Source of the DNA: Eledone cirrhosa
Lineage: Eukaryota
Reading direction: 5' to 3'
Length of the DNA: 64,000 nt
Assembly: GCA_964016885.1 (NCBI GenBank)
Contig: OZ024757.1
Location: forward strand, 6,696,001 to 6,760,000
Positions 850-64,000 of the stretch are shown here, one piece after another (positions within the stretch are counted from its first letter, which is position 1; each line of letters starts with the position of its first letter). The translations under genes were made by a program, and so were the position numbers. The notes below the pieces were generated by a model. It saw only the letters and a program-made list of their open reading frames with translations. It did no database searches and was not told the origin of the DNA.

Positions 850-2383
<1,534 letters not shown>

Positions 2384-37354: not shown

Positions 37355-38487
37355 GCTTCTTTAGAACACATCTGCTGTATTCAGACATGGAGCGGAGATG
37401 GGCTCCACCAAGTTTTAAAAATTGCCCTTTAAGCGCTGTATGTCAATATGGTGCCCCTATGATTCCCTCCCTCAGGAGTTATGGGACCATAGATACTGTC
37501 AATTGTAAAGAATAACAGAGATATTCAGTGCTAGTGTGGTGTTCTGTCAGTTGTGGAGATTGATGAATCTAAACAGAAATATCAACAGCACTTTTCATTT
37601 CTGAGTAACACATTTGTTACCAAGTGCTGCATGGCTGGAATGAAAATCAGTGCTGTGAAAACCAAGACATTCATCCTCTCAAGGAAGCTTGTGCAGTGCA
37701 CTCTACATGTAAATGGAGTCCCACTGAAGCAGGTAGAAAAGTTCATGTATCTCGAAGCTGTGTTCACGAGTGATGACAGAGACGGCAAAGGCACAACACA
37801 CAACAGAAGAAAAGAACAATGACAATTATTATTATTATTATTATTATTATTTGTTTTATTAGTTTTATTATAATAAAAATTGTGCTGTTAGTTTGCTTGC
37901 TATACCATCATGTACCCTAACCCTAAACCTAACCCCAACTCCAACTCTGACCCTAAACCTAACCCCAACCCCAACCCTAACCCTAACCCTAACCCTAACC
38001 CACGATAGAAGACGTTCGTTACCGCTGGAGCAACGCAAATTACTCCTCGGTTGACGCCAAAAACGAACGCCTTCTCGACGGCTAGCCGCATTTCGTGATC
38101 CGCCTTTCGATTGCGCTTCCGTCGCGGAAAAAGAATTGCCTTTATAGGCCGCCGCCGCCCGACCGGACCCACGATAGAAGACGTTCGTTACCGCTGGAGC
38201 AACGCAAATTACTCCTCGGTTGACGCCAAAAACGAACGCCTTCTCGACGGCTAGCCGCATTTCGTGATCCGCCTTTCGATTGCGCTTCCGTCGCGGAAAA
38301 AGAATTGCCTTTATAGGCCGCCGCCGCCGCCCGACCGGACCCACGATAGAAGACGTTCGTTACCGCTGGAGCAACGCAAATTACTCCTCGGTTGACGCCA
38401 AAAACGAACGCCTTCTCGACGGCTAGCCGCATTTCGTGATCCGCCTTTCGATTGCGCTTCCGTCGCGGAAAAAGAATTGCCTTTATA
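35246..38487 (+). repeat. Segmental duplication copy 2, truncated inside the spacer repeats by the palindromic satellite
   Basis: Offset ~12.77 kb from copy 1; the differences I could see are mostly microsatellite length. Confidence 0.95.
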
Positions 38488-41400
38488 TCTCCGTAACATC
38501 AAGAGTTATGGCTGTGGAGGCACACCTAGTCAAACGTAAACAATGTCTGGAGCGTTTACACTTCGCGATTTTGTTTACGTTTGACTAGGTGTGCCTCCAC
38601 AGCCACAACTCTTGATGTTACGGAGATATCTTGCTGAAATGCATACCGCGCACAGCCAATGAGTGTCCGCACATGTACTTCTAATTACACATCGATCCGT
38701 CAACATCCGGCCGGCCCACGATCGACGCACAGGGCCGGATGGCCCGTTTTCAGTGAATTTTCACCGGAATCGATCTGTAATTACTGGTACATGTGCGGAG
38801 ACACATTTGCTGTGTGTGGTGTGATTTTCAAGAAAAACTGCCCATGCTAAATGAGGAAGCTGAAGTCCGCCGGCGAATGGTGTGCTTCGAAGAAAACTAA
38901 TTCGAAAATGACCGTTTGCAGGCGGAGTAACCTTTTCGATCGTGGGCCAGCCGCCCGTGGTGGGATCCATCTGTAATTACTGGTACATGTGCGGACATAC
39001 ATTTGCTGTGTGTGGTGTGATTTTCAAGAAGAACTGCCCATGCTAAATGAGGAAGCTGAAGTCCGCCGGCGAATGGTGTGCTTCGAAGAAAACTAATTCG
39101 AAAATGACCGTTTGCAGGCGGGGTAACCTTTTCGATCGTGGGCCAGCCGCCCGTGGTGGGATACATCTGTAATTACTGGTACATGTGCGGACACACATTT
39201 GCTGTGTGTGGTGTGATTTTCGAGAAAGACTGCCCATGCTAAATGAGGAAGCTGAAGTCCGCCGGCGAATGGTGTGCTTCGAAGAAAACTAATTCGAAAA
39301 TGACTATTTGCCGGCGGAATCACCTTTTCGGTCCTGGTCCGGCCGGATCTTGCCGGATCGATCGGAAATTTGTGGACCATGTTCGGAAGGCCATTGTGCA
39401 TGTGTGGTGAAAAAAATTTGTGTCGAAATCTTCTCGGAAAATAACGGATCGCCGGCGGAGATTGCCATTTCGATCGTGGGCCGGCCGGATCTTGTCGGAT
39501 CGATTCGGACATATGTGCATCGTGTTCGCAAGGCCCTTGTCTATGTGTGGTGTGATTTTCATAAAGAAATTCCGAAAAACCCAGTTTTAAATCTGATTTC
39601 GCCAAAGAATTTTGGCTATCAGATCGGATTGAAAGGTATGGTTTCAGGTCGATCTGAAAGTCTAAAATGGAATTCACTCGGTTAGCTAACTTTTGATATA
39701 TCGGAGATATCTTTCTGAAAATCACACCACACACTCCCAATGAGTGTCTGCACATGTACCAGTAATTACAGATGGATCCCACCACGGGCGGCCGGCCCAC
39801 GATCGAAAAGGTTACTCCGAAGCACACCATTCGCCGGCGGAATTCATTTAGCATGGGCAGTTTTTCTCGAAAATCACACCACACACAGCCAATGAGTGTC
39901 CGCACATGTACCAGTAATTACAGATGGATCCCACCACGGGCGGCTGGCCCACGATCGAAAAGGTTACTCCGCCTGCAAACGGTCATTTTCGAATTCGTTT
40001 TCTTCGAAGCACACGATTCGCCGGCGGACTTCAGCTGCCTCATTTAGCATGGGCAGTTTTTCTCGAAAATCATACCACACACAGCAAATGTGTGTCCGCA
40101 CATGTACCAGTAATTACAGATCGATTCCGGTGAAAATTCACTGAAAACGGGCCATTCGGCCCTGTGCGTCGATCGTGGGCCGGCCGGATGTTGACGGATC
40201 GATGTGTAATTAGAAGTACATGTGCGGACACTCATTGGCTGTGCGTGGTATGCATTTCATCAAGATATCTCCGTAACATCAAGAGTTATGGCTGTGGAGG
40301 CACACCTAGTCAAACGTAAACAAGCTCTGGAGCGTATACGCTTCGCGATTTTGTTTACGTTTGACTAGGTGTGCCTCCACAGCCACAACTCTTGATGTTA
40401 CGGAGATATCTTGCTGAAATCCATACCACGCACAGCCAATGAGTGTCCGCACATGTACTTCTAATTACACATCGATCCGTCAACATCCGGCCGGCCCACG
40501 ATCGACGCACAGGGCCGGATGGCCCGTTTTCAGTGAATTTTCACCGGAATCGATCTGTAATTACTGGTACATGTGCGGACACACATTTGCTGTGTGTGGT
40601 GTGATTTTCACGAAAAACTGCCCATGCTAAATGAGGAAGCTGAAGTCCGCCGGCGAATGGTGTGCTTCGAAGAAAACTAATTCGAAAATGACCGTTTGCA
40701 GGCGGAGTAACCTTTTCGATCGTGGGCCAGCCGCCCGTGGTGGGATACATCTGTAATTACTGGTACATGTGCGGACACACATTTGCTGTGTGTGGTGTGA
40801 TTTTCGAGAAAGACTGCCCATGCTAAATGAGGAAGCTGAAGTCCGCCGGCGAATGGTGTGCTTCGAAGAAAACTAATTCGAAAATGACTATTTGCCGGCG
40901 GAATCACCTTTTCGGTCCTGGTCCGGCCGGATCTTGCCGGATCGATCGGAAATTTGTGGACCATGTTCGGAAGGCCATTGTGCATGTGTGGTGAAAAAAA
41001 TTTGTGTCGAAATCTTCTCGGAAAATAACGGATCGCCGGCGGAGATTGCCATTTCGATCGTGGGCCGGCCGGATCTTGTCGGATCGATTCGGACATATGT
41101 GCATCGTGTTCGCAAGGCCCTTGTCTATGTGTGGTGTGATTTTCATAAAGGAATTCCGAAAAACCCAGTTTTAAATCTGATTTCGCCAAAGAATTTTGGC
41201 TATCAGATCGGGTTGAAAGGTATGGTTTCAGGTCGATCTGAAAGTCTAAAATGGAATTCACTCGGTTAGCTAACTTTTGATATATCGGAGATATCTTTCT
41301 GAAAATCACACCACACACTCCCAATGAGTGTCTGCACATGTACCAGTAATTACAGATGGATCCCACCACGGGCGGCCGGCCCACGATCGAAAAGGTTACT

Positions 41401-42064
41401 CCGAAGCACACCATTCGCCGGCGGAATTCATTTAGCATGGGCAGTTTTTCTCGAAAATCACACCACACACAGCCAATGAGTGTCCGCACATGTACCAGTA
41501 ATTACAGATGGATCCCACCACGGGCGGCTGGCCCACGATCGAAAAGGTTACTCCGCCTGCAAACGGTCATTTTCGAATTAGTTTTCTTCGAAGCACACCA
41601 TTCGCCGGCGGACTTCAGCTTCCTCATTTAGCATGGGCAGTTTTTCTTGAAAATCACACCACACACAGCAAATATGTGTCCGCACATGTACCAGTAATTA
41701 CAGATCGATTCCGGTGAAAATTCACCGAAAACAGGCCATTCGGCCCTGTGCGTCGATCGTGGGCCGGCCGGATGTTGACGGATCGATGTGTAATTAGAAG
41801 TACATGTGCGGACACTCATTGGCTGTGCGTGGTATGCATTTCAGCAAGATATCTCCGTAACATCAAGAGTTATGGCTGTGGAGGCACACCTAGTCAAACG
41901 TAAACAAGGTCTGGAGCGTTTACGCTTCGCGATTTTGTTTACGTTTGAATAGGTGTGCCTCCACAGCGACAACTCTTGATGTTACGGAGATATCTTGCTG
42001 AAATTCATACCACGCACAGCCAATGAGTGTCCGCACATGTACCTGTAATTACATATCGATCCGA
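38485..42064. repeat. Palindromic (foldback-like) satellite array 1, periods 1780 and 1584 bp
   Basis: Hairpin centres CTAGTCAAACGTAAACAA-loop-TTGTTTACGTTTGACTAG at about 38555, 40335 and 41920; 196-bp subunits occur in both orientations. Confidence 0.93.
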
Positions 42065-42149
42065 CGACGGACAGAGTATTCGGTTTATTTTCTTGACATA
42101 TTTCTTTACATATTGTCCAGGCATGCACTTTTTCCATGATTAGTTCTGT

Positions 42150-42205
42150 TGACGGCCCGCTTTCCAAAATACCTTATCCTGTGCAACGCCGGGTACCACT
42201 GCTAG
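42150..42205 (+). mobile_element. Helitron-type 3' terminus (GC hairpin plus CTAG, followed by T and (TA)n)
   Basis: CCTGTGCAACGCCGGG-TACCACTG-CTAG|T; a reverse-complement copy is at 48830-48885. Confidence 0.7.
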
Positions 42206-42424
42206 TATATATATGTGTATGTATATATATATATATATATTGGTAAACGGAATAGAAAATTGTGACAAATTGTTCACAGTGAAAAATAGTTTAATTAGGA
42301 ATAAGTTATAATTAGTAATAGTATTGGTTAGTATTAAGTTTTGGTTTTAAGTTTTACCGGTTGCGCATTTCTAATGCTTTTCAAAAATAATTTTGAGATA
42401 GAGCGTCCGTGATGTTTGCTCTGA

Positions 42425-42464
<40 letters not shown>

Positions 42465-42611
42465 AACAGTAGAAAGGAAAAAGATTTTTTCAGTAGAAAT
42501 TGCTGAAGAGATTCTTTCAGTGTAATTTCAAAACATTAATTTATTTATAAAGTGGATATTTCCACATTTAATAATGGCACTGGGTTCAGCATTATATACA
42601 TTGTCAATTGT

Positions 42612-43010
42612 GGATTCTACTTTTGGCACAAGGGCTGCAATTATCCAGTACATTACTGGTACTTTATTATTTATACAAATAATAATTGTTTCTACTTTTG
42701 GCACAAGGGCAGCAATTACCCAGTACATTACTGGTACTTTATTATTTATACAAATAATAATTGTTTCTACTTTAGGCACAAGGTCAGCAATTACCCAGTA
42801 CATTACTGGTACTTTATTATTTATACAAATAATAATTGTTTCTACTTTAGGCACAAGGTCAGCAATTACCCCAGTACTTTATTTTATCGACCCCGTAAGG
42901 ATGAAAGAAAAGTTAACCTCAACGGGATTTGAACTCAGTCTGTAAAGGGAGGTAACTGCTGGAAAGCATGGCGTCCGACCCTCTACCGATACTGCCAATC
43001 CACCCATTAC
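42612..43010 (-). mobile_element. SINE copy with its 3' part amplified as ~78-bp tandem repeats
   Basis: Reverse complement of the SINE core at 42870-43010, plus 3-4 repeats of TTCTACTTT.GGCACAAGG...CCCAGTACATTACTGGTACTTTATT. Confidence 0.65.
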
Positions 43011-43323
43011 AAAGGGGAAGAAAAATTAATTTTCACATAAATATTGAGAGAGGAGAATTGAGTTGTCTGTCTTGTCTGTTGTCTCTGTTAATTCTTTGGT
43101 TTTGACTGGTGTTGGGGGAGAGGAGTAGAAGGGCGGGGGTAGAAGGAGGGGTGAATGAGGGGGGGGGGGGGCATAAGGAGGGAGGGATTAGAAGAAGGAG
43201 GAGGGTGATGGAGGGGGGGGGGGGGTAGAATGAGGGGGTAGAAGAAGGAGGAGGCAGGGGATAGGTGTGGTGGCAGACTGTTGTGAAAGTCCCTTTCAAG
43301 AATTGCTACAAGGGCTGGGATTG

Positions 43324-44204
43324 GTTTGAAAGGTTGGATGACCTTAGAGTTCACCAGGGTGGGGGGTTCTAAAAGTATCTATCTTGGTATTTTATCTTAG
43401 AAGTAATCATTACAGAGTGTACTGGGTGTATTTTAGTGGGCAGTAATTCCATAAAGAACACAGTATAATCTGTGGACACAAGCCTTGCAGTGTGATTACA
43501 GGCAGGTTAATGGGAAAGATAGATTATATATGTGACATGATGTACATGAGAAGTGAGGACACAGACCACACATGAAATAGATTCCTACAACTGTCAGGGA
43601 GGCTCCCTAGAATTACAGATGACATATTTCAATATCTCGGTGATCAAGTTAGCAGTGGAGGAAGAATCTCTAAAAGTGTAATACCCAGGATAAGGACAGG
43701 CTGGAAGAAGTTTAGAGTACTGTTCCATCTGTTGACAACAAAGGGCTTCTCTCTCAGAATGGAGGCTAGACTGCTTGATACTTATGTGTGGTCTGCAATC
43801 TACACCCCAGCCATGCCCCTTCCACTACCACTCCTTAGCTATTTCTCTCCATTAATACTCCTCACATTTCAAGCAGTTTTCTCATCTCAATGAAAGAAAA
43901 ATATTGGGCTCAAGAGAAGTCTTCAGTTATGCCATGGTGTGGCAACCTCCCTAGGGTTGGGCAGAGTGTAAATGAGAGTGAAATTAGGTATGAGAGGGAT
44001 CAGATGCAGTATACAAGAGAGTAGATTACATTGGTATGGTCATGTGATGGGTATAAAGGATGACAGCTGTATAAAAATGTGCTGGGCAATCAAAGTTGAT
44101 GGAAGTTATGAAGGCGGAAGACCTAGGATGACCTGGGATGAGGTGATAAAAGATGACTTTGCACAATTGCAACTCTCAAAGACAATGACACAGGATAGAG
44201 ATCT
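43324..44204 (+). repeat. ~880-bp duplicated segment carrying a degraded RTE 3' region; second copy at 49037-49918
   Basis: ORFs at 43972 and 49685 are nearly identical (offset 5713); the copies diverge after GGATAGAGATCTT. Confidence 0.9.
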
Positions 44205-44985
44205 TATTTATGTTTATTTACGTTTAGCGTAATCGATTTGTTTTCGATTTGTTTCCATATCACCACGCGTTTTATTTCATAGTCATAGTTATCAAGTTAG
44301 AAAACAAATGAAGTTCAGGGGGCCGACACTACCGACTTTCTTAAAGAAAAACAATTTAACGCGGGTAACTACAAGATAACCTTGATTTGTAATACTGGCA
44401 GACATTGAAATATTTAAAATTCTCTATAATTTCCTTTTTATCAGGTCCCAAGCAGTAACACTTCGAATATTTCAATAAATATTAACCAGTTACTCCCGTT
44501 TTCGTTCTTTCTTTAATGTGGTAGAGGGTATAAGATTTACCTGCTATTTCTAGCAACTTCAATGACCACATAATTGGTTTGTAATTTTGTTTTAAAGTGT
44601 AAGGGTTTACACAGCCATTTATGAATTTCTAAGAGATACGTTTACGATGAGATACACTTATTAAAAATACTTTCATTGCTTAGTTCCGTTCGTAAAGGCT
44701 TTAATTTACTGTACTACTCGGGAACCTTTTAATAACATACAGGATTAAGAAAATAAATTCAACATCCGTAGTTTAATAATTATAACAGCTTCTCGTATGT
44801 CCAATGGGTACCAAATAACCAGCTACTTTTCCAGAGTTATGGTACAATTAAAACAAAACGATAATATACAATCTTATTTAACATGTGTATTAAAAACTAG
44901 ACTAGCTGTTACAATTGTAATTAACGTGTAAGCAAAAACTTAGTTATTAACTTAGCCAAGGAAATAATAATAAAGCAGATCGATA

Positions 44986-45452
44986 TCACGGCAAAACTTT
45001 CTCCAATCTGCTACAGCCACATTCGCTGCCTTTTCTAATCGACTCCATGTTTCTACATGGCCTTCCACATGACCAGATAATTACATCTGACATATTTGTT
45101 TTCGCTACTTCCATCATACGTTCACCACATGATGGGCAGACCTTTTCAGTATTCAGGAGCCCATGTTTGTTCAACCAATTAATGGTATCTGCTGTAGTAG
45201 GGGTAGCGATGGAAATATGGCGATGATTAATTCCACGCTGGGGTATAATGTAGAATACATATTTTTCAACTTGCAAATACGTGTATTATCCCAAAGTGAA
45301 AAACCAAGTTTTACATCAACGTGGTGATTTCAAAGTTTATTTATTTACACATGGTGGTGGGGGGGGGGGGGGATACGGAAATAAACGAAGGCTGACGAAT
45401 GACGTCACATTCTTCTACTTTCACTTCTGACAGCCAATTCCGGTGTAGTGCC
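44986..45452 (-). mobile_element. Merlin/IS1595-like DNA transposon 5' remnant
   Basis: Peptide WLNKHGLL...CPSC...WSC...C...SIRKGS resembles the N-terminal Zn ribbon of Merlin transposases. A possible terminus GGCACTACACCGG lies near 45452; no second TIR found. Confidence 0.6.
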
Positions 45453-48829: not shown

Positions 48830-48885
48830 CTAGCAGTGGTACCCGGCGTTGCACGGGATAACGTATTTCGGAACGCGGGCCGCCA
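48830..48885 (-). mobile_element. Second Helitron-type 3' terminus
   Basis: Reverse complement reads CCCGTGCAACGCCGGG-TACCACTG-CTAG|T(AT)n. Confidence 0.7.
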
Positions 48886-50039: not shown

Positions 50040-50302
50040 ACACCACCTTTAGACTGTAAAGTGGTTGTGTACAAGTCACAACAAAAGCACCCAGTCCACT
50101 CTGTAAAGTTGATGTGTTGGTGTCATAACAAAAGGCACTCAGTTCACTCTGTAAAGAGGTTTTGTAAGTGTCACAACAAAGACATCTAGTCCACACTGTA
50201 AAGTGGTCATGTAGGTGTCACAACAAAAAGTACCAGTCATTATTGTAAAGTGGTTGTATAGGTGTCATAACAAAAAGCACCGAGTCCACTCTGTTAAGTG
50301 GT
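50040..50302 (+). repeat. ~48-bp tandem repeats of the RTE 3' UTR
   Basis: CTGTAAAGTGG...GTCACAACAAAAGCAC.CAGTCCAC repeated 5-6 times; similar repeats at 6620-6770. Confidence 0.75.
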
Positions 50303-50749
50303 CACCGCGATCGCGAGGGGACTCAGTCCGCTGCTGTTTTAAGGCGCCGTCGTTGTCGGCGATCGCGTCGGCGGCGGTCTCTCGTTTCGACGAGTCGACC
50401 GCCGACCGCCTCGCCGGCGTTACGATTCGCGGGGTGCCGGCATCGGACGCACTTCCCCTTCGATCCGTCGTCGCCGCCGCGACCCGTTCCCGTCAGGCTG
50501 GATGGCGCGCGGTGTCCGCAGGTCGCAGAGCGGCGTCCCGCCTAGAAAACGAACCATTCCCGGTTCGCTTTCGAAGCGGGTTTCCGAAAACAGCGCTTCT
50601 CTCGACCGGGCCCGTCGTCCGCTCGGCGGTGGTTTTCATCGTCCCAGGCACGGCTAACAGGCGGAGACGGGACAAACGCGCGTGTTCCTTTTTTATCAGC
50701 CGCAGCGCCGTTCGTATATATGCTTAAGTTGTTTTTTTTTAAAATATCC

Positions 50750-50992
50750 TAAGTTAAGTTGGGGCTAAGTTAAGTTGGGGCTAAGTTAAGTTGAGGTTAA
50801 GTTGAGTTGGGGGTTAAGTTAAGTGGGGGTTAAGTTAAGCTGGGGTTAAGTTAAGTTGAGGTTAAGTTAAGTTGGGGTTAAGTTAAGTTGGGGTTAAGTC
50901 AAGTTGGGGTTAAGTTAAGTTGGGGTTAAGTTAGGTTGGGGTTAAGTTAGGTTGGGGTTAAGTTGGGGTTAAGTTAGGTTGCGGTTAAGTTA
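50750..50992. repeat. Variant telomere-like tract (TTAAG TTAAG TTGGGG)n, G-rich on the plus strand
   Basis: About 15 copies of a 16-mer built from TTAAG/TTAGG/TTGGGG. Confidence 0.8.
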
Positions 50993-50997
50993 CGTTC

Positions 50998-53900
50998 GCA
51001 CACCATTCGCCGCCGGACTTCAGCTTCCTCATTTAGCATGGGCAGTTTTTCTTGAAAATCACACCACACACAGCAAATGTGTGTCCGCACATGTACCAGT
51101 AATTACAGATCGATTCCGGTGAAAATTCACTGAAAACGGGCCATCCGGCCCTGTGCGTCGATCGTGGGCCGGCCGGATGTTGACGGATCGATGTGTAATT
51201 AGAAGTACATGTGCGGACACTCATTGGCTGTGCGTGGTATGCATTTCAGCAAGATATCTCCGTAACATCAAGAGTTATGGCTGTGGAGGCACACCTAGTC
51301 AAACGTAAACAAGGTCTGGAGCGTTTACGCTTCGCGATTTTGTTTACGTTTGGCTAGGTGTGCCTCCACAGCCACAACTCTTGATGTTACGGAGATATCT
51401 TGCTGAAATGCATACCACGCACAGCCAATGAGTGTCCGCACATGTACTTCTAATTACACATCGATCCGTCAACATCCAGCCGGCCCACGATCGACGCACA
51501 GGGCCGGATAGCCCGTTTTCAGTGAATTTTCACCGGAATCGATCTGTAATTACTGGTACATGTGCGGACACACATTTGCTGTGTGTGGAGTGATTTTCAA
51601 GAAAAACTGCCCATGCTAAATGAGGAAGCTGAAGTCCGCCGGCGAATGGTGTGCTTCGAAGAAAACTAATTCGAAAATGACCGTTTGCAGGCGGAGTAAC
51701 CTTTTCGATCGTGGGCCAGCCGCCCGTGGTGGGATCCATCTGTAATTACTGGTACATGTGCGGACACACATTTTCTGTGTGTGGTGTGATTTTCAAGAAA
51801 AACTGCCCATGCTAAATGAGGAAGCTGAAGTCCGCCGGCGAATGGTGTGCTTCGAAGAAAACTAATTCGAAAATGACCGTTTGCAGGCGGAGTAACCTTT
51901 TCGATCGTGCGCCAGCCGCCCCTGGTGGGATCCATCTGTAATTACTGGTACATGTGCGGACACACATTTGCTGTGTGTGGTGTGATTTTCAAGAAAAACT
52001 GCCCATGCTAAATGAGGAAGCTGAAGTCCGCCGGCGAATGGTGTGCTTCGAAGAAAACGAATTCGAAAATGACTATTTGCCGGCGGAATCACCTTTTCGG
52101 TCCTGGTCCGGCCGGATCTTGCCGGATCGATCGGAAATTTGTGGACCATGTTCGGAAGGCCATTGTGCATGTGTGGTGAAAAAAAGTTGTGTCGAAATCT
52201 TCTCGGAAAATAACGGATCGCCGGCGGAGATTGCCATTTCGATCGTGGGCCGGCCGGATCTTGTCGGATCGATTCGGACATATGTGCATCGTGTTCGCAA
52301 GGCCCTTGTCTATGTGTGGTGTGATTTTCATAAAGAAATTCCGAAAAACCCAGTTTTAAATCTGATTTCGCCAAAGAATTTTGGCTATCAGATCGGGTTG
52401 AAAGGTATGGTTTCAAGTCGATCTGAAAGTCTAAAATGGAATTCACTCGGTTAGCTAACTTTTGATATATCGGAGATATCTTTCTGAAAATCACACCACA
52501 CACTCCCAATGAGTGTCTGCACATGTATCAGTAATTACAGATGGATCCCACCACGGGCGGCCGGCCCACGATCGAAAAGGTTACTCCGAAGCACACCATT
52601 CGCCGGCGGACTTCATTTAGCATGGGCAGTTTTTCTTGAAGATCACACCACACACAGCCAATGAGTGTCCGCACATGTACCAGTAATTACAGATGGATCC
52701 CACTACGGGCGGCTGGCCCACGATCGAAAAGGTTACTCCGCCTGCAAACGGTCATTTTCGAATTCGTTTTCTTCGAAGCACACCATTCGCCGGCGGACTT
52801 CAGCTGCCTCATTTAGCATGGGCAGTTTTTCTCGAAAATCACACCACACACAGCCAATGAGTGTCCGCACATGTACCAGTAATTACAGATGGATCCCACC
52901 ACGGGCGGCTGGCCCACGATCGAAAAGGTTACTCCGCCTGCAAACGGTCATTTTCGAATTCGTTTTCTTCGAAGCACACCATTCGCCGGCGGACTTCAGC
53001 TTCCTCATTTAGCATGGGCAGTTTTTCTTGAAAATCACACCACACACAGCAAATGTGTGTCCGCACATGTACCAGTAATTACAGATCGATTCCGGTGAAA
53101 ATTCACTGAAAACGGGCCATTCGGCCCTGTGCGTCGATCGTGGGCCGGCCGGATGTTGACAGATCGATGTGTACTTAGAAGTACATGTGCGGACCCTCAT
53201 TGGCTGTGCGTGGTATGCATTTCAGCAAGATATCTCCGTAACATCAAGAGTTATGGCTGTGGAGGCACACCTAGTCAAACGTAAACAAGGTCTGGAGCGT
53301 TTACGCTTCGCGATTTTGTTTACGTTTGACTAGGTGTGCCTCCACATCCACAACTCTTGATGTTACGGAGATATCTTGCTGAAATGCATACCACGCACAG
53401 CCAATGAGTGTCCGCACATGTACCAGTAATTACACATCGATCCGTCAACATGCGGCCGGCCTACGATCGACGCATAGGGCCGGATGGCACGTTTTCGGTG
53501 AATTTTCACCGGAATCGATCTGTAATTACTGGTACATGTGCGGACACTCATTGGCTGTGTGTGGTGTGATTTTCGAGAAAAACTGCCCATGCTAAATGAG
53601 GCAGCTGAAGTCCGCCGGCGAATCGTGTGCTTCGAAGAAAACTAATTCGAAAATGACCGCTTGCAGGCGGAGTAACCTTTTCGATCGTGGGCCAGCCGCC
53701 CGTGGTGGGATCCATCTGTAATTACTGGTACATGTGCGGACACTCATTGCCTGTGTGTGGTGTGATTTTCGAGAAAAACTGCCCATGCTAAATGAGGCAG
53801 CTGAAGTCCGCCGGCGAATGGTGTGCTTCGAAGAAAACGAATTCGAAAATGACTATTTGCCGGCGGAATCACCTTTTCGGTCCTGGTCCGGCCGGATCTT

Positions 53901-56900
53901 GCCGGATCGATCGGAAATTTGTGGACCATGTTCGGAAGGCCATTGTGCATGTGTCGTGAAAAAAAGATGTGTCGAAATCTTCTCGGAAAATAACGGATCG
54001 CCGGCGGAGATTGCCATTTCGATCGTGGGCCGGCCGGATCTTGTCGGATCGATTCGCACATATGTGCATCGTGTTCGCAAGGCCCTTGTCTATGTGTGGT
54101 GTGATTTTCATAAAGAAATTCCGAAAAACCCAGTTTTAAATCTGATTTCGCCAAAGAATTTTGGCTATCAGATCGGGTTGAAAGGTATGGTTTCAAGTCG
54201 ATCTGAAAGTCTAAAATGGAATTCACTCGGTTAGCTAACTTTTGATATATCGGAGATATCTTTCTGAAAATCACACCACACACTCCCAATGAGTGTCTGC
54301 ACATGTACCAGTAATTACAGATGGATCCCACCACGGGCGGCCGGCCCACGATCGAAAAGGTTACTCCGAAGCACACCATTCGCCGGCGGACTTCATTTAG
54401 CATGGGCAGTTTTTCTTGAAGATCACACCACACACAGCCAATGAGTGTCCGCACATGTACCAGTAATTACAGATGGATCCCACTACGGGCGGCTGGCCCA
54501 CGATCGAAAAGGTTACTCCGCCTGCAAACGGTCATTTTCGAATTCGTTTTCTTCGAAGCACACCATTCGCCGGCGGACTTCAGCTGCCTCATTTAGCATG
54601 GGCAGCTTTTCTCGAAAATCACACCACACACAGCCAATGAGTGTCCGCACATGTACCAGTAATTACAGATGGATCACACCACGGGCGGCTGGCCCACGAT
54701 CGAAAAGGTTACTCCGCCTGCAAACGGTCATTTTCGAATTCGTTTTCTTCGAAGCACACCATTCGCCGGCGGACTTCAGCTTCCTCATTTAGCATGGGCA
54801 GTTTTTCTCGAAAATCACACCACACACAGCAAATCTGTGTCCGCACATGTACCAGTAATTACAGATCGATTCCGGTGAAAATTCACCGAAAACGGGCCAT
54901 TTGGCCCTGTGCGTCGATCGTGGGCCGGCCGGATGTTGACGGATCGATGTGTAATTAGAAGTACATGTGCGGACACTCATTGGCTGTGCGTGGTATGCAT
55001 TTCAGCAAGATATCTCCGTAACATCAAGAGTTATGGCTGTGGAGGCACACCTAGTCAAACGTAAACAAGGTATGGAGCGTTTACGCTTCGCGATTTTGTT
55101 TACGTTTGACTAGGTGTGCCTCCACAGCCACAACTCTTGATGTTACGGAGATATCTTGCTGAAATTCATACCACCCACAGCCAATGAGTGTCCGCACATG
55201 TACTTCTAATTACACATCGATCCGTCAACATCCGGCCGGCCCACGATCGACGCATAGGGCCGGATGGCCCGTTTTCAGTGAATTTTCACCGGAATCGATC
55301 TGTAATTACTGGTACATGTGCGGACACTCATTGGCTGTGTGTGGTGTGATTTTCAAGAAAAACTGCCCATGCTAAATGAGGCAGCTGAAGTCCGCCGGCG
55401 AATCGTGTGCTTCGAAGAAAACTAATTCGAAAATGACCGCTTGCAGGCGGAGTAACCTTTTCGATCGTGGGCCAGCCGCCCGTGGTGGGATCCATCTGTA
55501 ATTACTGGTACATGTGCGGACACTCATTGCCTGTGTGTGGTGTGATTTTCGAGAAAAACTGCCCATGCTAAATGAGGCAGCTGAAGTCCGCCGGCGAATG
55601 GTGTGCTTCGAAGAAAACGAATTCGAAAATGACTATTTGCCGGCGGAATCACCTTTTCGGTCCTGGTCCGGCCGGATCTTGCCGGATCGATCGGAAATTT
55701 GTGGACCATGTTCGGAAGGCCATTGTGCATGTGTCGTGAAAAAAAGATGTGTCGAAATCTTCTCGGAAAATAACGGATCGCCGGCGGAGATTGCCATTTC
55801 GATCGTGGGCCGGCCGGATCTTGTCGGATCGATTCGCACATATGTGCATCGTGTTCGCAAGGCCCTTGTCTATGTGTGGTGTGATTTTCATAAAGAAATT
55901 CCGAAAAACCCAGTTTTAAATCTGATTTCGCCAAAGAATTTTGGCTATCAGATCGGGTTGAAAGGTATGGTTTCAAGTCGATCTGAAAGTCTAAAATGGA
56001 ATTCACTCGGTTAGCTAACTTTTGATATATCGGAGATATCTTTCTGAAAATCACACCACACACTCCCAATGAGTGTCTGCACATGTACCAGTAATTACAG
56101 ATGGATCCCACCACGGGCGGCCGGCCCACGATCGAAAAGGTTACTCCGAAGCACACCATTCGCCGGCGGACTTCATTTAGCATGGGCAGTTTTTCTTGAA
56201 GATCACACCACACACAGCCAATGAGTGTCCGCACATGTACCAGTAATTACAGATGGATCCCACTACGGGCGGCTGGCCCACGATCGAAAAGGTTACTCCG
56301 CCTGCAAACGGTCATTTTCGAATTCGTTTTCTTCGAAGCACACCATTCGCCGGCGGACTTCAGCTGCCTCATTTAGCATGGGCAGCTTTTCTCGAAAATC
56401 ACACCACACACAGCCAATGAGTGTCCGCACATGTACCAGTAATTACAGATGGATCACACCACGGGCGGCTGGCCCACGATCGAAAAGGTTACTCCGCCTG
56501 CAAACGGTCATTTTCGAATTCGTTTTCTTCGAAGCACACCATTCGCCGGCGGACTTCAGCTTCCTCATTTAGCATGGGCAGTTTTTCTCGAAAATCACAC
56601 CACACACAGCAAATCTGTGTCCGCACATGTACCAGTAATTACAGATCGATTCCGGTGAAAATTCACCGAAAACGGGCCATTTGGCCCTGTGCGTCGATCG
56701 TGGGCCGGCCGGATGTTGACGGATCGATGTGTAATTAGAAGTACATGTGCGGACACTCATTGGCTGTGCGTGGTATGCATTTCAGCAAGATATCTCCGTA
56801 ACATCAAGAGTTATGGCTGTGGAGGCACACCTAGTCAAACGTAAACAAGGTATGGAGCGTTTACGCTTCGCGATTTTGTTTACGTTTGACTAGGTGTGCC

Positions 56901-59900
56901 TCCACAGCCACAACTCTTGATGTTACGGAGATATCTTGCTGAAATTCATACCACCCACAGCCAATGAGTGTCCGCACATGTACTTCTAATTACACATCGA
57001 TCCGTCAACATCCGGCCGGCCCACGATCGACGCATAGGGCCGGATGGCCCGTTTTCAGTGAATTTTCACCGGAATCGATCTGTAATTACTGGTACATGTG
57101 CGGACACTCATTGGCTGTGTGTGGTGTGATTTTCAAGAAAAACTGCCCATGCTAAATGAGGCAGCTGAAGTCCGCCGGCGAATCGTGTGCTTCGAAGAAA
57201 ACTAATTCGAAAATGACCGCTTGCAGGCGGAGTAACCTTTTCGATCGTGGGCCAGCCGCCCGTGGTGGGATCCATCTGTAATTACTGGTACATGTGCGGA
57301 CACTCATTGCCTGTGTGTGGTGTGATTTTCGAGAAAAACTGCCCATGCTAAATGAGGCAGCTGAAGTCCGCCGGCGAATGGTGTGCTTCGAAGAAAACGA
57401 ATTCGAAAATGACTATTTGCCGGCGGAATCACCTTTTCGGTCCTGGTCCGGCCGGATCTTGCCGGATCGATCGGAAATTTGTGGACCATGTTCGGAAGGC
57501 CATTGTGCATGTGTCGTGAAAAAAAGATGTGTCGAAATCTTCTCGGAAAATAACGGATCGCCGGCGGAGATTGCCATTTCGATCGTGGGCCGGCCGGATC
57601 TTGTCGGATCGATTCGCACATATGTGCATCGTGTTCGCAAGGCCCTTGTCTATGTGTGGTGTGATTTTCATAAAGAAATTCCGAAAAACCCAGTTTTAAA
57701 TCTGATTTCGCCAAAGAATTTTGGCTATCAGATCGGGTTGAAAGGTATGGTTTCAAGTCGATCTGAAAGTCTAAAATGGAATTCACTCGGTTAGCTAACT
57801 TTTGATATATCGGAGATATCTTTCTGAAAATCACACCACACACTCCCAATGAGTGTCTGCACATGTACCAGTAATTACAGATGGATCCCACCACGGGCGG
57901 CCGGCCCACGATCGAAAAGGTTACTCCGAAGCACACCATTCGCCGGCGGACTTCATTTAGCATGGGCAGTTTTTCTTGAAGATCACACCACACACAGCCA
58001 ATGAGTGTCCGCACATGTACCAGTAATTACAGATGGATCCCACTACGGGCGGCTGGCCCACGATCGAAAAGGTTACTCCGCCTGCAAACGGTCATTTTCG
58101 AATTCGTTTTCTTCGAAGCACACCATTCGCCGGCGGACTTCAGCTGCCTCATTTAGCATGGGCAGCTTTTCTCGAAAATCACACCACACACAGCCAATGA
58201 GTGTCCGCACATGTACCAGTAATTACAGATGGATCACACCACGGGCGGCTGGCCCACGATCGAAAAGGTTACTCCGCCTGCAAACGGTCATTTTCGAATT
58301 CGTTTTCTTCGAAGCACACCATTCGCCGGCGGACTTCAGCTTCCTCATTTAGCATGGGCAGTTTTTCTCGAAAATCACACCACACACAGCAAATCTGTGT
58401 CCGCACATGTACCAGTAATTACAGATCGATTCCGGTGAAAATTCACCGAAAACGGGCCATTTGGCCCTGTGCGTCGATCGTGGGCCGGCCGGATGTTGAC
58501 GGATCGATGTGTAATTAGAAGTACATGTGCGGACACTCATTGGCTGTGCGTGGTATGCATTTCAGCAAGATATCTCCGTAACATCAAGAGTTATGGCTGT
58601 GGAGGCACACCTAGTCAAACGTAAACAAGGTATGGAGCGTTTACGCTTCGCGATTTTGTTTACGTTTGACTAGGTGTGCCTCCACAGCCACAACTCTTGA
58701 TGTTACGGAGATATCTTGCTGAAATTCATACCACCCACAGCCAATGAGTGTCCGCACATGTACTTCTAATTACACATCGATCCGTCAACATCCGGCCGGC
58801 CCACGATCGACGCATAGGGCCGGATGGCCCGTTTTCAGTGAATTTTCACCGGAATCGATCTGTAATTACTGGTACATGTGCGGACACTCATTGGCTGTGT
58901 GTGGTGTGATTTTCAAGAAAAACTGCCCATGCTAAATGAGGCAGCTGAAGTCCGCCGGCGAATCGTGTGCTTCGAAGAAAACTAATTCGAAAATGACCGC
59001 TTGCAGGCGGAGTAACCTTTTCGATCGTGGGCCAGCCGCCCGTGGTGGGATCCATCTGTAATTACTGGTACATGTGCGGACACTCATTGCCTGTGTGTGG
59101 TGTGATTTTCGAGAAAAACTGCCCATGCTAAATGAGGCAGCTGAAGTCCGCCGGCGAATGGTGTGCTTCGAAGAAAACGAATTCGAAAATGACTATTTGC
59201 CGGCGGAATCACCTTTTCGGTCCTGGTCCGGCCGGATCTTGCCGGATCGATCGGAAATTTGTGGACCATGTTCGGAAGGCCATTGTGCATGTGTCGTGAA
59301 AAAAAGATATGTCGAAATCTTCTCGGAAAATTACGGATCGCCGGCGGAGATTGCCATTTCGATCGTGGGCCGGCCGGATCTTGTCGGATCGATTCGGACA
59401 TATGTGCATCGTGTTCGCAAGGCCCTTGTCTATGTGTGGTGTGATTTTCATAAAGAAATTCCGAAAAACCCAGTTTTAAATCTGATTTCGCCAAAGAATT
59501 TTGGGTATCAGATCGGGTTGAAAGGTATGGTTTCAAGTCGATCTGAAAGTCTAAAATGGAATTCACTCGGTTAGCTAACTTTTGATATATCGGAGATATC
59601 TTTCTGAAAATCACACCACACACTCCCAATGAGTGTCTGCACATGTACCAGTAATTACAGATGGATCCCACCACGGGCGGCCGGCCCACGATCGAAAAGG
59701 TTACTCCGAAGCACACCATTCGCCGGCGGACTTCATTTAGCATGGGCAGTTTTTCTTGAAGATCACACCACACACAGCCAATGAGTGTCCGCACATGTAC
59801 CAGTAATTACAGATGGATCCCACTACGGGCGGCTGGCCCACGATCGAAAAGGTTACTCCGCCTGCAAACGGTCATTTTCGAATTCGTTTTCTTCGAAGCA

Positions 59901-62900
59901 CACCATTCGCCGGCAGACTTCAGCTGCCTCATTTAGCATGGGCAGCTTTTCTCGAAAATGACACCACACACAGCCAATGAGTGTCCGCACATGTACCAGT
60001 AATTACAGATGGATCACACCACGGGCGGCTGGCCCACGATCGAAAAGGTTACTCCGCCTGCAAACGGTCATTTTCGAATTCGTTTTCTTCGAAGCACACC
60101 ATTCGCCGGCGGACTTCAGCTTCCTCATTTAGCATGGGCAGTTTTTCTCGAAAATCACACCACACACAGCAAATCTGTGTCCGCACATGTACCAGTAATT
60201 ACAGATCGATTCCGGTGAAAATTCACCGAAAACGGGCCATTCGGTCCTGTGCGTCGATCGTGGGCCGGCCGGATGTTGACGGATCGATGTGTAATTAGAA
60301 GTACATGTGCGGACACTCATTGGCTGTGCGTGGTATGCATTTCAGCAAGATATCTCCGTAACATCAAGAGTTATGGCTGTGGAGGCACACCTAGTCAAAC
60401 GTAAACAAGGTATGGAGCGTTTACGCTTCGCGATTTTGTTTACGTTTGACTAGGTGTGCCTCCACAGCCACAACTCTTGATGTTACGGAGATATCTTGCT
60501 GAAATTCATACCACCCACAGCCAATGAGTGTCCGCACATGTACTTCTAATTACACATCGATCCGTCAACATTCGGCCGGCCCACGATCGACGCATAGGGC
60601 CGGATGGCCCGTTTTCAGTGAATTTTCACCGGAATCCATCTGTAATTACTGGTACATGTGCGGACACTCATTGGCTGTGTGTGGTGTGATTTTCGAGAAA
60701 AACTGCCCATGCTAAATGAGGAAGCTGAAGTCCGCCGGCGAATCGTGTGCTTCGAAGAAAACTAATTCGAAAATGACCGCTTGCAGGCGGAGTAACCTTT
60801 TCGATCGTGGGCCAGCCGCCCGTGTTGGGATCCATCTGTAATTACTGGTACATGTGCGGACACACATTTGCTGTGTGTGGTGTGATTTTCAAGAAAAACT
60901 GCCCATGCTAAATGAGGAAGCTGAAGTCCGCCGGCGAATGGTGTGCTTCGAAGAAAACGAATTCGAAAATGACTATTTGCCGGCGGAATCACCTTTTCGG
61001 TCCTGGTCCGGCCGGATCTTGCCGGATCGATCGGAAATTTGTGGACCATGTTCGGAAGGCCATTGTGCATGTGTGGTGAAAAAAAGTTGTGTCGAAATCT
61101 TCTCGGAAAATAACGGATCGCCGGCGGAGATTGCCATTTCGATCGTGGGCCGGCCGGATCTTGTCGGATCGATTCGGACATATGTGCATCGTGTTCGCAA
61201 GGCCATTGTCTATGTGTGGTGTGATTTTCATAAAGAAATTCCGAAAAACCCAGTTTTAAATCTGATTTCGCCAAAGAATTTTGGCTATCAGATCGGGTTG
61301 AAAGGTATGGTTTCAAGTCGATCTGAAAGTCTAAAATGGAATTCACTCGGTTAGCTAACTTTTGATATATCGGAGATATCTTTCTGAAAATCACACCACA
61401 CACTCCCAATGAGTGTCTGCACATGTACCAGTAATTACAGATGGATCCCACTACGGGCGGCTGGCCCACGATCGAAAAGGTTACTCCGCCTGCAAACGGT
61501 CATTTTCGAATTCGTTTTCTTCGAAGCACACCATTCGCCGGCGGACTTCAGCTGCCTCATTTAGCATGGGCAGTTTTTCTCGAAAATCACACCACACACA
61601 GCCAATTAGTGTCCGCACATGTACCAGTAATTACAGTTGGATCCCACCACGGGCGGCTGGCCCACGATCGAAAAGGTTACTCCGCCTGCAAACGGTCATT
61701 TTCGAATTCGTTTTCTTCGAAGCACACCATTCGCCGGCGGACTTCAGCTTCCTCATTTAGCATGGGCAGTTTTTCTCGAAAATCACACCACACACAGCAA
61801 ATCTGTGTCCGCACATGTACCAGTAATTACAGATCGATTCCGGTGAAAATTCACCGAAAACGGGCCATTCGGCCCTGTGCGTCGATCGTGGGCCGGCCGG
61901 ATGTTGACGGATCGATGTGTAATTAGAAGTACATGTGCGGACACTCATTGGCTGTGCGTGGTATGCATTTCAGCAAGATATCTCCGTAACATCAAGAGGT
62001 ATGGCTGTGGAGGCACTCCTAGTCAAACGTAAACAAGGTATGGAGCGTTTACGCTTCGCGATTTTGTTTACGTTTGACTAGGTGTGCCTCCACAGCCACA
62101 ACTCTTGATGTTACGGAGATATCTTGCTGAAATTCATACCACCCACAGCCAATGAGTGTCCGCACATGTACTTCTAATTACACATCGATCCGTCAACATC
62201 CGGCCGGCCCACGATCGACGCATAGGGCCGGATGGCCCGTTTTCAGTGAATTTTCACCGGAATCGATCTGTAATTACTGGTACATGTGCGGACACTCATT
62301 GGCTGTGTGTGGTGTGATTTTCGAGAAAAACTGCCCATGCTAAATGAGGCAGCTGAAGTCCGCCGGCGAATGGTGTGCTTCGAAGAAAACGAATTCGAAA
62401 ATGACTATTTGCCGGCGGAATCACCTTTTCGGTCCTGGTCCGGCCGGATCTTGCCGGATCGATCGGAAATTTGTGGACCATGTTCGGAAGGCCATTGTGC
62501 ATGTGTCGTGAAAAAAAGATGTGTCGAAATCTTCTCGGAAAATTACGGATCGCCGGCGGAGATTGCCATTTCGATCGTGGGCCGGCCGGATCTTGTCGGA
62601 TCGATTCGGACATATGTGCATCGTGTTCGCAAGGCCCTTGTCTATGTGTGGTGTGATTTTCATAAAGAAATTCCGAAAAACCCAGTTTTAAATCTGATTT
62701 CGCCAAAGAATTTTGGGTAGCAGATCGGGTTGAAAGGTATCGTTTCAAGTCGATCTGAAAGTCTAAAATGGAATTCACTCGGTTAGCTAACTTTTGATAT
62801 ATCGGAGATATCTTTCTGAAAATCACACCACACACTCCCAATGAGTGTCTGCACATGTACCAGTAATTACAGATGGATCCCACCACGGGCGGCTGGCCCA

Positions 62901-64000
62901 CGATCGAAAAGGTTACTCCGCCTGCAAACGGTCATTTTCGAATTCGTTTTCTTCGAAGCACACCATTCGCCGGCGGACTTCAGCTGCCTCATTTAGCATG
63001 GGCAGCTTTTCTCGAAAATCACACCACACACAGCCAATGAGTGTCCGCACATGTACCAGTAATTACAGATGGATCACACCACGGGCGGCTGGCCCACGAT
63101 CGAAAAGGTTACTCCGCCTGCAAACGGTCATTTTCGAATTCGTTTTCTTCGAAGCACAACATTCACCGGCGGACTTCAGCTTCCTCATTTAGCATGGGCA
63201 GTTTTTCTCGAAAATCACACCACACACAGCAAATCTGTGTCCGCACATGTACCAGTAATTACAGATCGATTCCGGTGAAAATTCACCGAAAACGGGCCAT
63301 TCGGTCCTGTGCGTCGATCGTGGGCCGGCCGGATGTTGACGGATCGATGTGTAATTAGAAGTATATGTGCGGACACTCATTGGCTGTGCGTGGTATGCAT
63401 TTCAGCAAGATATCTCCGTAACATCAAGAGTTATGGCTGTGGAGGCACACCTAGTCAAACGTAAACAAGGTATGGAGCGTTTACGCTTCGCGATTTTGTT
63501 TACGTTTGACTAGGTGTGCCTCCACAGTCACAACTCTTGATGTTACGGAGATATCTTGCTGAAATTCATACCACCCACAGCCAATGAGTGTCCGCACATG
63601 TACCTCTAATTACACATCGATCCGTCAACATCCGGCCGGCCCACGATCGACGCATAGGGCCGGATGGCCCGTTTTCAGTGAATTTTCACCGGAATCGATC
63701 TGTAATTACTGGTACATGTGCGGACACTCATTGGCTGTGTGTGGTGTGATTTTCGAGAAAAACTGCCCATGCTAAATGAGGCAGCTGAAGTCCGCCGGCG
63801 AATCGTGTGCTTCGAAGAAAACTAATTCGAAAATGACCGCTTGCAGGCGGAGTAACCTTTTCGATCGTGGGCCAGCCGCCCGTGGTGGGATCCATCTGTA
63901 ATTACTGGTACATGTACGGACACTCATTGCCTGTGTGTGGTGTGATTTTCGAGAAAAACTGCCCATGCTAAATGAGGCAGCTGAAGTCCGCCGGCGAATG
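50998..64000. repeat. Palindromic satellite array 2, at least 7 units, running off the window
   Basis: The same marker ORF recurs at 51033, 53009, 54789, 56569, 58349, 60129, 61757 and 63189, giving periods 1976, 1780 x4, 1628 and 1432. Confidence 0.95.

What the first reader, a model, noticed from the sequence alone, without database searches (positions are those of the whole stretch)
38485..64000. Hierarchically palindromic satellite with 196-bp modular arms
Seen: each unit consists of a ~30-bp loop, an arm, a ~420-bp core and the inverted arm. The arms hold 196-bp tandem subunits. A ~65-bp motif (CACCACACACAGCCAATGAGTGTCCGCACATGTACCAGTAATTACA) recurs in both orientations within each arm, giving nested hairpins. 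Unit lengths differ by whole subunits (1976, 1780, 1584; 1628, 1432). The loop and core always keep the same orientation, with no flip-flop. That fits head-to-tail amplification (rolling circle or unequal exchange) of a foldback-like element better than rolling-hairpin or breakage-fusion-bridge. Inference: arms of several hundred bp around a short loop could extrude cruciforms and, if transcribed, give long dsRNA (ADAR or Dicer substrate). The 196-bp period is near nucleosome repeat length, so a centromeric or subtelomeric role is possible.
Basis: partly seen in the sequence, partly recalled or inferred. Interest (0 to 1): 0.7.

Follow-up and report, generated by a model that had tools for sequence, protein, structure and literature searches.

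The report
Hairpin satellite with surviving ancestral template
In a large animal genome (likely an octopus), a 1.4-2.0-kb repeat made of mirror-image halves runs about 60 times in a row over 106 kb; it is built from the same pieces as the genome's abundant 196/227-base satellite, an older one-off patchwork of the same hairpins on another chromosome suggests the mirror layout likely came first, and it is an unusually clean case of a satellite type known from flour beetles, with no function shown.

Summary
The structure is real and the unit lengths are exact. But 42068-50996 is not satellite, and the long array runs 93 kb past the window: 106 kb, 62 loops, the last one flipped. It is not a stand-alone foldback element. 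About 88% of a unit aligns to head-to-tail 196/227-bp satellite arrays on the four giant chromosomes (24,677 motif hits against 409 loops), and two stem searches found no dispersed copy. New here: a 2.8-kb multi-hairpin mosaic, found once (C2:209.87 Mb), shares the unit's loop, head, joint and module order. Head-to-tail sister arrays on C1, C3 and C4 still carry a remnant of one of its hairpins, so the inverted layout is likely ancestral. Growth likely came by local unequal exchange, since divergence rises with distance. Arm-to-arm copying is shown once (370 bp, including a private mutation). A centromere role and transcription are untested; the unit sits on only two chromosome-scale contigs. 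Closest known: Tribolium madens TmSat2 and the T. brevicornis satellite. This scan already reported the same repeat on other pieces of this genome.

The parts
38485..42067 (.). Short array: two whole units (1780, 1584) plus partial ends; loops at 38544, 40324, 41908; same sequence type as the islands on C28
   Evidence: 1.3 differences per 400 bp from C28 cores against 4.8 for the long array
50997..64000 (.). Start of the long pure array, which continues to C18:6,853,339 (106 kb, 62 loops, 61 cores, last loop reversed)
53289..53315 (+). 27-bp loop of a representative unit; holds its own small hairpin, so the palindrome centre is a mismatched bubble rather than an unrelated spacer
   Evidence: aligns with a loop of the C2 mosaic
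53316..53470 (+). Stem plus head module; homolog of the part that is special to the 227-bp satellite monomer
   Evidence: 84% to the 227-bp array; the same module of the next unit is 95% identical over 150 bp to the C2 mosaic
53471..53513 (+). Tail-to-tail joint where the strand switches
   Evidence: the same joint of the next unit is 94% identical over 49 bp to the C2 mosaic
53514..53931 (-). Left arm: 196-bp satellite monomers, reversed (1-3 copies per unit)
   Evidence: best 92-94% to C4:211.9-212.2 Mb monomers (left-arm monomers of the short array)
53932..54260 (.). Core: two decayed reversed modules, about 110 bp without a match, and a decayed stem; likely an older, eroded second axis
54261..54870 (+). 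Right arm: one 152-bp and then 196-bp monomers (2-5 motif copies per unit)
54871..55068 (-). Mirror copy of joint, head and stem, leading into the next loop
50750..50996 (+). 16-bp telomere-like repeat stub at the start of the long array; a related junction starts 61 islands elsewhere
50302..50750 (+). 28S rRNA gene fragment, about 91% identical to the intact rDNA units
37998..38487 (+). 172-bp tandem repeat related to DNA 0.8-1.6 kb upstream of the 18S gene, joined directly to the short array

Best explanation
This is a non-coding satellite whose unit is a two-axis palindrome built from modules of the genome's 196/227-bp satellite family; the palindrome likely arose long ago by fold-back copying errors at short self-complementary words, likely grew into arrays by unequal exchange between neighbouring units, and is likely inert heterochromatin. 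Shown: the module make-up; constant polarity; arm length changing mostly by whole monomers; one arm-to-arm copying event; one reversed end piece; one loop with a one-sided deletion; a low-copy mosaic with the same hairpins; hairpin remnants in head-to-tail sister arrays. Inferred: that the inverted layout is older than the head-to-tail arrays, that template switching made the junctions, that unequal exchange drove growth, and that the mismatched 27-bp centre plus 2-4% arm mismatch lowers cruciform formation enough for the array to persist.
For: Family: a 25-mer with up to 2 mismatches has 24,677 hits (control 0) against 409 loops. Plain arrays were fetched at C1:279.7-279.9, C2:243.7-245.0, C4:211.9-212.2, 233.6-234.3 and 247.5 Mb. 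One mixed array covers 1561 of 1780 unit bases. Mosaic: L156 (C2:209.874-209.877 Mb) covers 1664 of 1780 bases at 68-74%, is collinear from loop through head, joint and decayed modules over about 950 bp, and has several hairpins with the same stem. Its stems were found only there (3 of 3 hits; 5 of 9 hits, the other 4 in C28 islands). Its unique part has contig depth 4.5 and 3.0 in 2 of 4 runs laid. A loop remnant with both inner stem ends occurs 24 times in 6 fetched loci of head-to-tail arrays on C1, C3 and C4, 93% identical over 136 bp to a mosaic hairpin. In a 33-row tree the 8 mosaic modules are scattered, while the 5 modules of this unit form one tight group beside one of them. Six-base palindromic words are enriched (93 against 43 in shuffles for the mosaic, 7 against 2.3 for the head). 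Growth: core differences rise from about 3 per 400 bp between neighbours to 5 at 40 units apart, and length variants come in local runs and dimers. Arm exchange: at C18:6,794,077 both arms are identical over 370 bp, including a base absent from all 60 other left and 60 other right arms; derived allele 80G is in right arms of islands (14 of 29) and left arms of the long array (26 of 126).
Against: The mosaic lacks about 47 bp of the 196-bp monomer, and the arm monomers are closer to the C4 arrays (91-93% median) than the backbone is to the mosaic, so the mosaic is a relative of the parent, not the direct parent. The tree is unrooted, 154 columns long, with only 5 of 27 inner branches well supported. 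The loop remnant was not seen in the pure 196-bp arrays of C2 or the pure 227-bp arrays. Near the loop, alleles shared by both arms are no more common than chance (3 observed, 1.6 expected; 91 of 102 loops), so arm copying is rare. An old transposon origin of the module cannot be excluded by exact or 2-mismatch patterns. 'Inert' rests on absence of data: CpG is not depleted (observed/expected 1.16 against 0.29 in the flank).
Confidence: 0.62

Rival explanations
1. The head-to-tail 196/227-bp satellite came first; inversions inside it produced the palindromic unit, and the C2 mosaic is a later scrap heap of recombined pieces.
For: Arm monomers are full 196-bp units, best 92-95% identical to C4 arrays, and the mosaic lacks part of the monomer. 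Strand switches occur inside plain arrays too (L173). This is the order usually assumed for Tribolium TmSat2 (PMC13081366, section 7).
Against: Head-to-tail arrays on three chromosomes carry both inner stem ends and a loop, which needs a hairpin-bearing precursor. Mosaic modules are 10-25% apart and span the tree instead of nesting in one young array. The mosaic and the unit share module order over about 950 bp at only about 72-74% identity.
Confidence: 0.22
2. The unit is a non-autonomous foldback transposon (long modular terminal inverted repeats around a middle domain, like Tetris) that was amplified whole into tandem arrays and later seeded the 196/227 satellite.
For: The form fits: inverted arms with a variable number of ~200-bp subrepeats round a fixed middle. 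Tetris has ~220-bp repeats in its arms and seeded a satellite (PMC4079207, passages).
Against: No dispersed stem: 12 of 12 hits of two stem patterns lie in the mosaic or in islands. The array ends inspected fall inside modules, not at a stem tip, so no target-site duplication can be defined. The loops between stems are related hairpin sequences, not unrelated host DNA. No Pfam match in 5 of 5 ORFs tested.
Confidence: 0.1
3. A hairpin-capped excised piece replicated into an inverted dimeric circle (ODIRA type) and was amplified in one rolling-circle burst.
For: An inverted dimer has exactly two axes, and rolling-circle copying would keep polarity constant (PMC4689423, abstract and section 9). 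The C28 islands are nearly identical (0.6 differences per 400 bp).
Against: The long array has 13 length classes in local runs, and divergence rises with distance. The junctions are old and shared with the mosaic. A circle may have seeded the array but does not explain its present state.
Confidence: 0.08
4. The unit is kept by selection as a centromere or pericentromere organiser through hairpin or cruciform structures.
For: Such a role is proposed, untested, for Tribolium dyads (PMC13081366, passages). The sister arrays lie mid-chromosome beside long TTAGGG tracts. Contig depth of the core in one sample (about 15,000 against 4.5 for the mosaic) hints at far more copies than the 409 assembled.
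Against: The unit is listed on only two chromosome-scale contigs, away from the plain arrays. Arm identity is lower in the long array (95.6%, 53 loops) than in the islands (98.2%, 31 loops), the opposite of what selection for pairing would predict.
Confidence: 0.08
5. The inverted arms are a sequencing or assembly artefact.
For: Long palindromes can mislead assemblers (general knowledge, no call). No laid contig spans a whole unit.
Against: Contigs from other public runs cross the head-joint-arm switch (232 bp, X3 and X6) and the core into the right arm (492 bp, X3). Arms differ at fixed sites (36T/C in 89 of 91 loops). Variants are ordered locally along the array.
Confidence: 0.02

Closest known systems
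Tribolium madens TmSat2 (704 bp; PMC13081366, passages and section 7 part 1 of 2 read)
   Same: A minor satellite whose monomer consists of subunits related to the major satellite, arranged in opposite orientation to give one long dyad; mostly short arrays.
   Different: Here the arms are longer (up to about 580 bp against about 300) and 95-98% identical. There are four strand switches and a variable monomer number per arm. The longest array is 106 kb against 60 kb. The unit is not intermingled with the major arrays but sits among rDNA fragments on two other chromosomes. No sequence relationship was tested or is expected.
Tribolium brevicornis major satellite (1061 bp, ~470-bp inverted segments; Mravinac et al. 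2005, seen only as described in PMC13081366)
   Same: [quoted passage not shown]
   Different: It is the major satellite of its genome. This unit is a minor derivative with nested palindromes and elastic arms, and its arms are as long or longer.
Tetris foldback transposon of Drosophila virilis (PMC4079207, passages)
   Same: Inverted arms holding a variable number of ~200-bp tandem repeats that are also found as a satellite.
   Different: Tetris has separate insertions with 8-10-bp target-site duplications. None was found here, and the whole palindrome, not only the subrepeat, is tandemly amplified.
ODIRA inverted dimers and their secondary junction deletions (PMC4689423, abstract and section 9)
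   Same: Two inversion axes per unit; one arm of a palindrome can be lost by recombination between short repeats, as inferred here for the hairpin remnant in head-to-tail arrays.
   Different: Shown in yeast for origin-containing amplicons of many kilobases. No origin or circular intermediate is shown here.

Membership tests
Satellite with intra-monomer dyad (TmSat2 / T. brevicornis kind) | Head-to-tail tandem array of a complex monomer | tested here: met
   61 units over 106 kb, constant polarity
Satellite with intra-monomer dyad (TmSat2 / T. brevicornis kind) | Monomer made of oppositely oriented subunits that form a long inverted repeat | tested here: met
   arms of 383-579 bp at 94.5-97%
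Satellite with intra-monomer dyad (TmSat2 / T. brevicornis kind) | Subunits related to the genome's major satellite | tested here: met
   1561 of 1780 bases covered by a head-to-tail array; best monomer identity 92-95%
Satellite with intra-monomer dyad (TmSat2 / T. brevicornis kind) | Intermingled with the major satellite in pericentromeric megabase blocks | tested here: not met
   loops listed on C18, C28 and small contigs; plain arrays on C1-C4; only part of the 409 loop places was listed
Foldback / TIR transposon (Tetris, FB) | Long inverted arms with internal tandem subrepeats round a middle domain | tested here: met
Foldback / TIR transposon (Tetris, FB) | Ends at the inverted-repeat tips with a target-site duplication | tested here: not met
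   the array ends read all fall inside modules
Foldback / TIR transposon (Tetris, FB) | Dispersed insertions at unrelated loci | tested here: not met
   12 of 12 stem hits in the mosaic or islands; copies more than about 10% diverged would be missed
Foldback / TIR transposon (Tetris, FB) | Autonomous partner with a transposase | not tested
   only 5 internal ORFs scanned, 0 Pfam matches; no genome-wide partner search
Centromeric satellite | One block on every chromosome | tested here: not met
   unit listed on C18 and C28; rare-variant samples of the family hit only C1-C4 and small contigs (17 and 39 hits); sampling, not a census
Centromeric satellite | CENP-A chromatin, primary constriction | not testable with these tools
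   no chromatin or cytology data
rDNA intergenic-spacer subrepeat | Present in intact rDNA units | tested here: not met
   0 of 20 stretches across three rDNA clusters match the unit
Single rolling-circle product of an inverted dimer (ODIRA kind) | Two axes per unit and constant polarity | tested here: met
Single rolling-circle product of an inverted dimer (ODIRA kind) | Uniform units, divergence independent of distance | tested here: not met
   13 length classes; about 3 rising to 5 differences per 400 bp with distance

The most novel reading that the evidence does not exclude
A whole satellite family of several megabases was born from a small fold-back mosaic whose relic survives once in the genome: the palindromic array keeps the ancestral inverted layout, and the plain 196/227-bp arrays of the giant chromosomes are its deletion products, still carrying hairpin scars. 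The genome would then hold precursor, palindromic branch and head-to-tail branch side by side, plus hundreds to thousands of kilobase palindromes kept alike by occasional arm-to-arm copying.
Probability: 0.5. Interest if true: 0.62.

Novelty: new variant of a known kind. Interest (0 to 1): 0.44.

Why it matters
The origin of a satellite monomer is rarely visible. Here a candidate precursor, a palindromic descendant and head-to-tail descendants can be aligned in one genome, so the order of events can be tested with one related species. The array also gives about 60 replicate kilobase palindromes in a row, a natural test of how long inverted repeats, usually fragile (PMC7999016, passages), are tolerated, eroded and repaired. 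It extends a layout reported mainly from insects to what is likely a cephalopod. It is not shown to do anything.

Tried and rejected
rDNA spacer idea: prompted by the 30-45-kb period on C28 and the rRNA fragments; rejected, no match in 20 stretches of intact rDNA. Helitron-internal repeat idea: a Helitron-like 3' end (label recalled, no library test) follows the short array, but other islands end elsewhere and the same piece follows a different repeat at C18:6.33 Mb; not pursued. RNA families: none of 65 Rfam matches lies in the satellite. Coding: 0 Pfam matches in 5 of 5 ORFs tested. Expression: no RNA holder listed among 24 runs; this says nothing either way, so editing and small RNAs are untested. 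Conservation across species: 20 runs under many organism labels hold words of the unit, but the three laid (X3, X6, X10) show the same variants at core depth 2-33, and X3 had nothing laid on the mosaic; read as trace carry-over, not conservation. Copy number from contig depth: core 15,073 against mosaic 4.5 in X1 hints at under-assembly, but the library type is unknown and the tool says depth is no copy number. Genome map by a rare variant: one search was swamped by one local cluster; one search gave only 17 hits. General excess of mirrored mutations near the loop: not found. Literature: two searches (octopus + centromere + satellite + tandem repeat; cephalopod + satellite DNA + centromer) listed no paper on such a repeat; subscription papers and repeat libraries were not searched, and no supplements were read (those of PMC13081366 hold the TmSat2 alignments and could sharpen the comparison).
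Full report
Setting. The window is G000:C18:6,696,001-6,760,000 of a 3.0-Gb animal assembly. It is likely an octopod; that label comes from earlier AI notes and from recalled traits (tandem zinc-finger genes, TTAGGG repeats) and was not tested here.

Observation. The repeat is real. Loops recur at 1780, 1584 and then 1976, 1780 x4, 1628, 1432 bp. Every unit reads loop, stem, head monomer (>), joint, 1-3 reversed monomers, core, 2-5 forward monomers, joint, head (<), stem. The loop is 27 bp with a small hairpin of its own. Arms align over 383-579 bp at 94.5-97% in the three loops measured in full. Bases 42068-50996 are other DNA. The second array runs on to C18:6,853,339: 106 kb, 62 loops, 61 cores. 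On C18, 64 of 65 loops share one polarity and the last is reversed. That end piece matches the short array in reverse at 98.5% over 1067 bp, so it looks like one exchange with an island-type copy, not ongoing flipping. Of 61 units, 7 carry deletions that are not whole monomers.

Where else it is. An exact loop 23-mer has 409 hits. A junction that starts islands has 61 hits: 45 on C28 (124.69-126.46 Mb) and 16 on six small contigs. On C28, islands of a few units sit in a 30-45-kb macro-repeat with scrambled rRNA-gene fragments, a histone stem-loop and a 16-bp telomere-like stub. Intact rDNA units supply those fragments but do not contain the palindromic unit (0 of 20 stretches). The short array in the window is island-type (1.3 differences per 400 bp from C28; the long array 4.8), which points to recent exchange between C18 and C28 (inference).

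What it is made of. A 25-mer from the subunit has 24,677 hits at up to 2 mismatches, control 0, far more than 409 units can hold. An altered pattern exposed the rest. There are plain head-to-tail arrays of 196 bp, a 227-bp variant and mixtures at C1:279.7-279.9, C2:243.7-245.0, C3:184.7, C4:211.9-212.2, 233.6-234.3 and 247.5 Mb, and a 520-bp composite with the 16-bp repeat at C2:209.3-209.9 Mb; some lie next to long TTAGGG tracts. A mixed C4 array covers 1561 of 1780 bases of a unit, a pure 196-bp array 1321. Arm monomers are closest to C4:211.9-212.2 Mb (best 92-95%, median 91-93%). The stem beside the loop is the piece that distinguishes the 227-bp monomer. The unit is therefore a member of a satellite family, not a separate element.

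The precursor-like mosaic. At the edge of the 520-bp array (L156, C2:209.874-209.877 Mb) lies a 2.8-kb patchwork of the same modules in alternating orientation, with several hairpins that share the stem but differ in loop. It covers 1664 of 1780 unit bases at 68-74% and is collinear from loop through head, joint and decayed modules over about 950 bp. Single parts are closer: head 95% over 150 bp, joint 94% over 49 bp. Two stem patterns found it only there (3 of 3 hits; 5 of 9 hits, the other 4 in C28 islands). Its unique part was laid at depth 4.5 and 3.0 in 2 of 4 runs. Head-to-tail arrays on C1, C3 and C4 carry 24 copies, in 6 of the fetched loci, of a piece with both inner stem ends and a loop; one is 93% identical over 136 bp to a mosaic hairpin. 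A direct array can hold both sides of a hairpin only if it descends from one (inference). In a 33-row tree the 8 mosaic modules scatter and each amplified repeat clusters near different ones. Against a simple parent-child story: the tree is unrooted and weak (5 of 27 branches supported), the mosaic lacks about 47 bp of the 196-bp monomer, and the remnant was not seen in the pure 196 or pure 227 arrays. I read the mosaic as a surviving relative of the parent.

How it likely works. (1) Inferred: junctions arose by fold-back copying at short self-complementary words, which are enriched (93 six-base palindromes against 43 in shuffles); short inverted repeats with short spacers drive such duplications in yeast (PMC7999016, passages; PMC4689423, abstract). 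(2) Inferred: a two-axis segment was amplified by unequal exchange. Neighbouring cores differ at about 3 of 400 bases and cores 40 units apart at 5 (61 of 63 cores used), and length variants come in local runs and dimers. A circle may have seeded the array but cannot be the whole story. (3) Shown: opposite arms sometimes copy each other. At C18:6,794,077 the arms are identical over 370 bp (median longest match 74 bp, 61 loops), including a base found in none of 60 other left or 60 other right arms (lead from e1-9909783). Allele 80G, absent from 113 outgroup monomers, is on right arms in islands (14 of 29) and left arms in the long array (26 of 126; 320 of 507 monomers usable). It is rare: near the loop, shared alleles number 3 against 1.6 expected, and one arm difference persists in 89 of 91 loops. 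(4) Inferred: the mismatched centre and arm mismatches make the palindromes tolerable; longer spacers and lower identity reduce instability. Arm identity over the first 290 bp is 95.6% in the long array (53 loops) and 98.2% in islands (31 loops; 18 of 102 loops dropped for indels, ends or reversal), and one island loop has a one-sided 24-bp deletion.

Function. None is shown. No Rfam match lies in the satellite and no Pfam match in 5 ORFs. The unit is listed on two chromosome-scale contigs, away from the plain arrays, so it is a poor general centromere candidate; the plain arrays are better ones but form several blocks per giant chromosome and were sampled only on C1-C4. CpG is undepleted (1.16 against 0.29 in the flank), which is unexplained.

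Artefact check. Contigs of other public runs cross the head-joint-arm switch (232 bp) and the core into the right arm (492 bp). Those runs probably hold trace DNA of the same animal species, so they support the junctions, not conservation.

Comparison and verdict. The closest known case is TmSat2 of Tribolium madens, a minor satellite whose monomer is a ~600-bp dyad built from subunits of the major satellite, with arrays up to 60 kb; the same paper names the T. brevicornis 1061-bp satellite (~470-bp inverted segments) as the most prominent dyad reported. This unit works like those and exceeds them in arm identity, nesting and array length, but is not intermingled with the major arrays. It resembles the foldback transposon Tetris in form but fails two defining tests. 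Two literature searches listed nothing on such a repeat in cephalopods. The scan has reported this repeat before on other pieces of this genome; the mosaic and the hairpin remnants were not in the notes shown to me. Verdict: new variant of a known kind, interest 0.44.

Noticed in passing
window 25208-34850: A 9.6-kb satellite stitched from 18S and 28S rRNA fragments (54-, 317- and 359-bp periods), preceded by a 169-bp repeat related to DNA upstream of 18S; it recurs in the C28 macro-repeat.
   Followed up: partly
window 42068-42205: Hairpin followed by CTAG, resembling a Helitron 3' end (label recalled); it closes many islands, and at C18:6,332,136 the same piece follows a different repeat.
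   Followed up: partly
C28:124.69-126.46 Mb (L013-L022, L112, L113): A 30-45-kb macro-repeat, about 45 copies, mixing rRNA fragments, a histone 3' stem-loop and palindrome islands; 97-100% identical to blocks of this C18 window, suggesting recent exchange between two chromosomes.
   Followed up: partly
L179 (C2:243.60 Mb), L185 and L169 (C3:184.60-184.75 Mb), L186, L109-L111: Interstitial TTAGGG tracts of 10 kb or more and long arrays of a 16-bp telomere-like repeat beside the 196/227 family in the middle of 379-443-Mb contigs; possible scars of chromosome fusions.
   Followed up: no
L173:8380-8470 (C4:247.486 Mb); C4:233.6-234.3 Mb: Strand switches inside otherwise head-to-tail arrays, giving large dyads like those in Tribolium.
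   Followed up: no
L037-L056 (C4:352.06, C12:25.06, C25:23.0 Mb): Three rDNA clusters with periods of about 40, 22 and 20 kb; the 28S gene spans 6.2 kb.
   Followed up: no
window 939-2344: An 84-bp repeat encoding about 16 C2H2 zinc fingers (label from the recalled linker motif); related copies lie in reverse just beyond the end of the long array.
   Followed up: no
L156:6340-10000: The mosaic is followed by an AT-rich repeat, a degenerate telomere-like stretch and a 20-bp repeat that also borders the arrays at C1:279.6 and C2:244.34 Mb.
   Followed up: no
runs X1-X20: Words of this repeat appear in runs filed under 18 organism labels, at trace depth in the three laid; a high-copy marker of likely cross-library carry-over.
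   Followed up: partly
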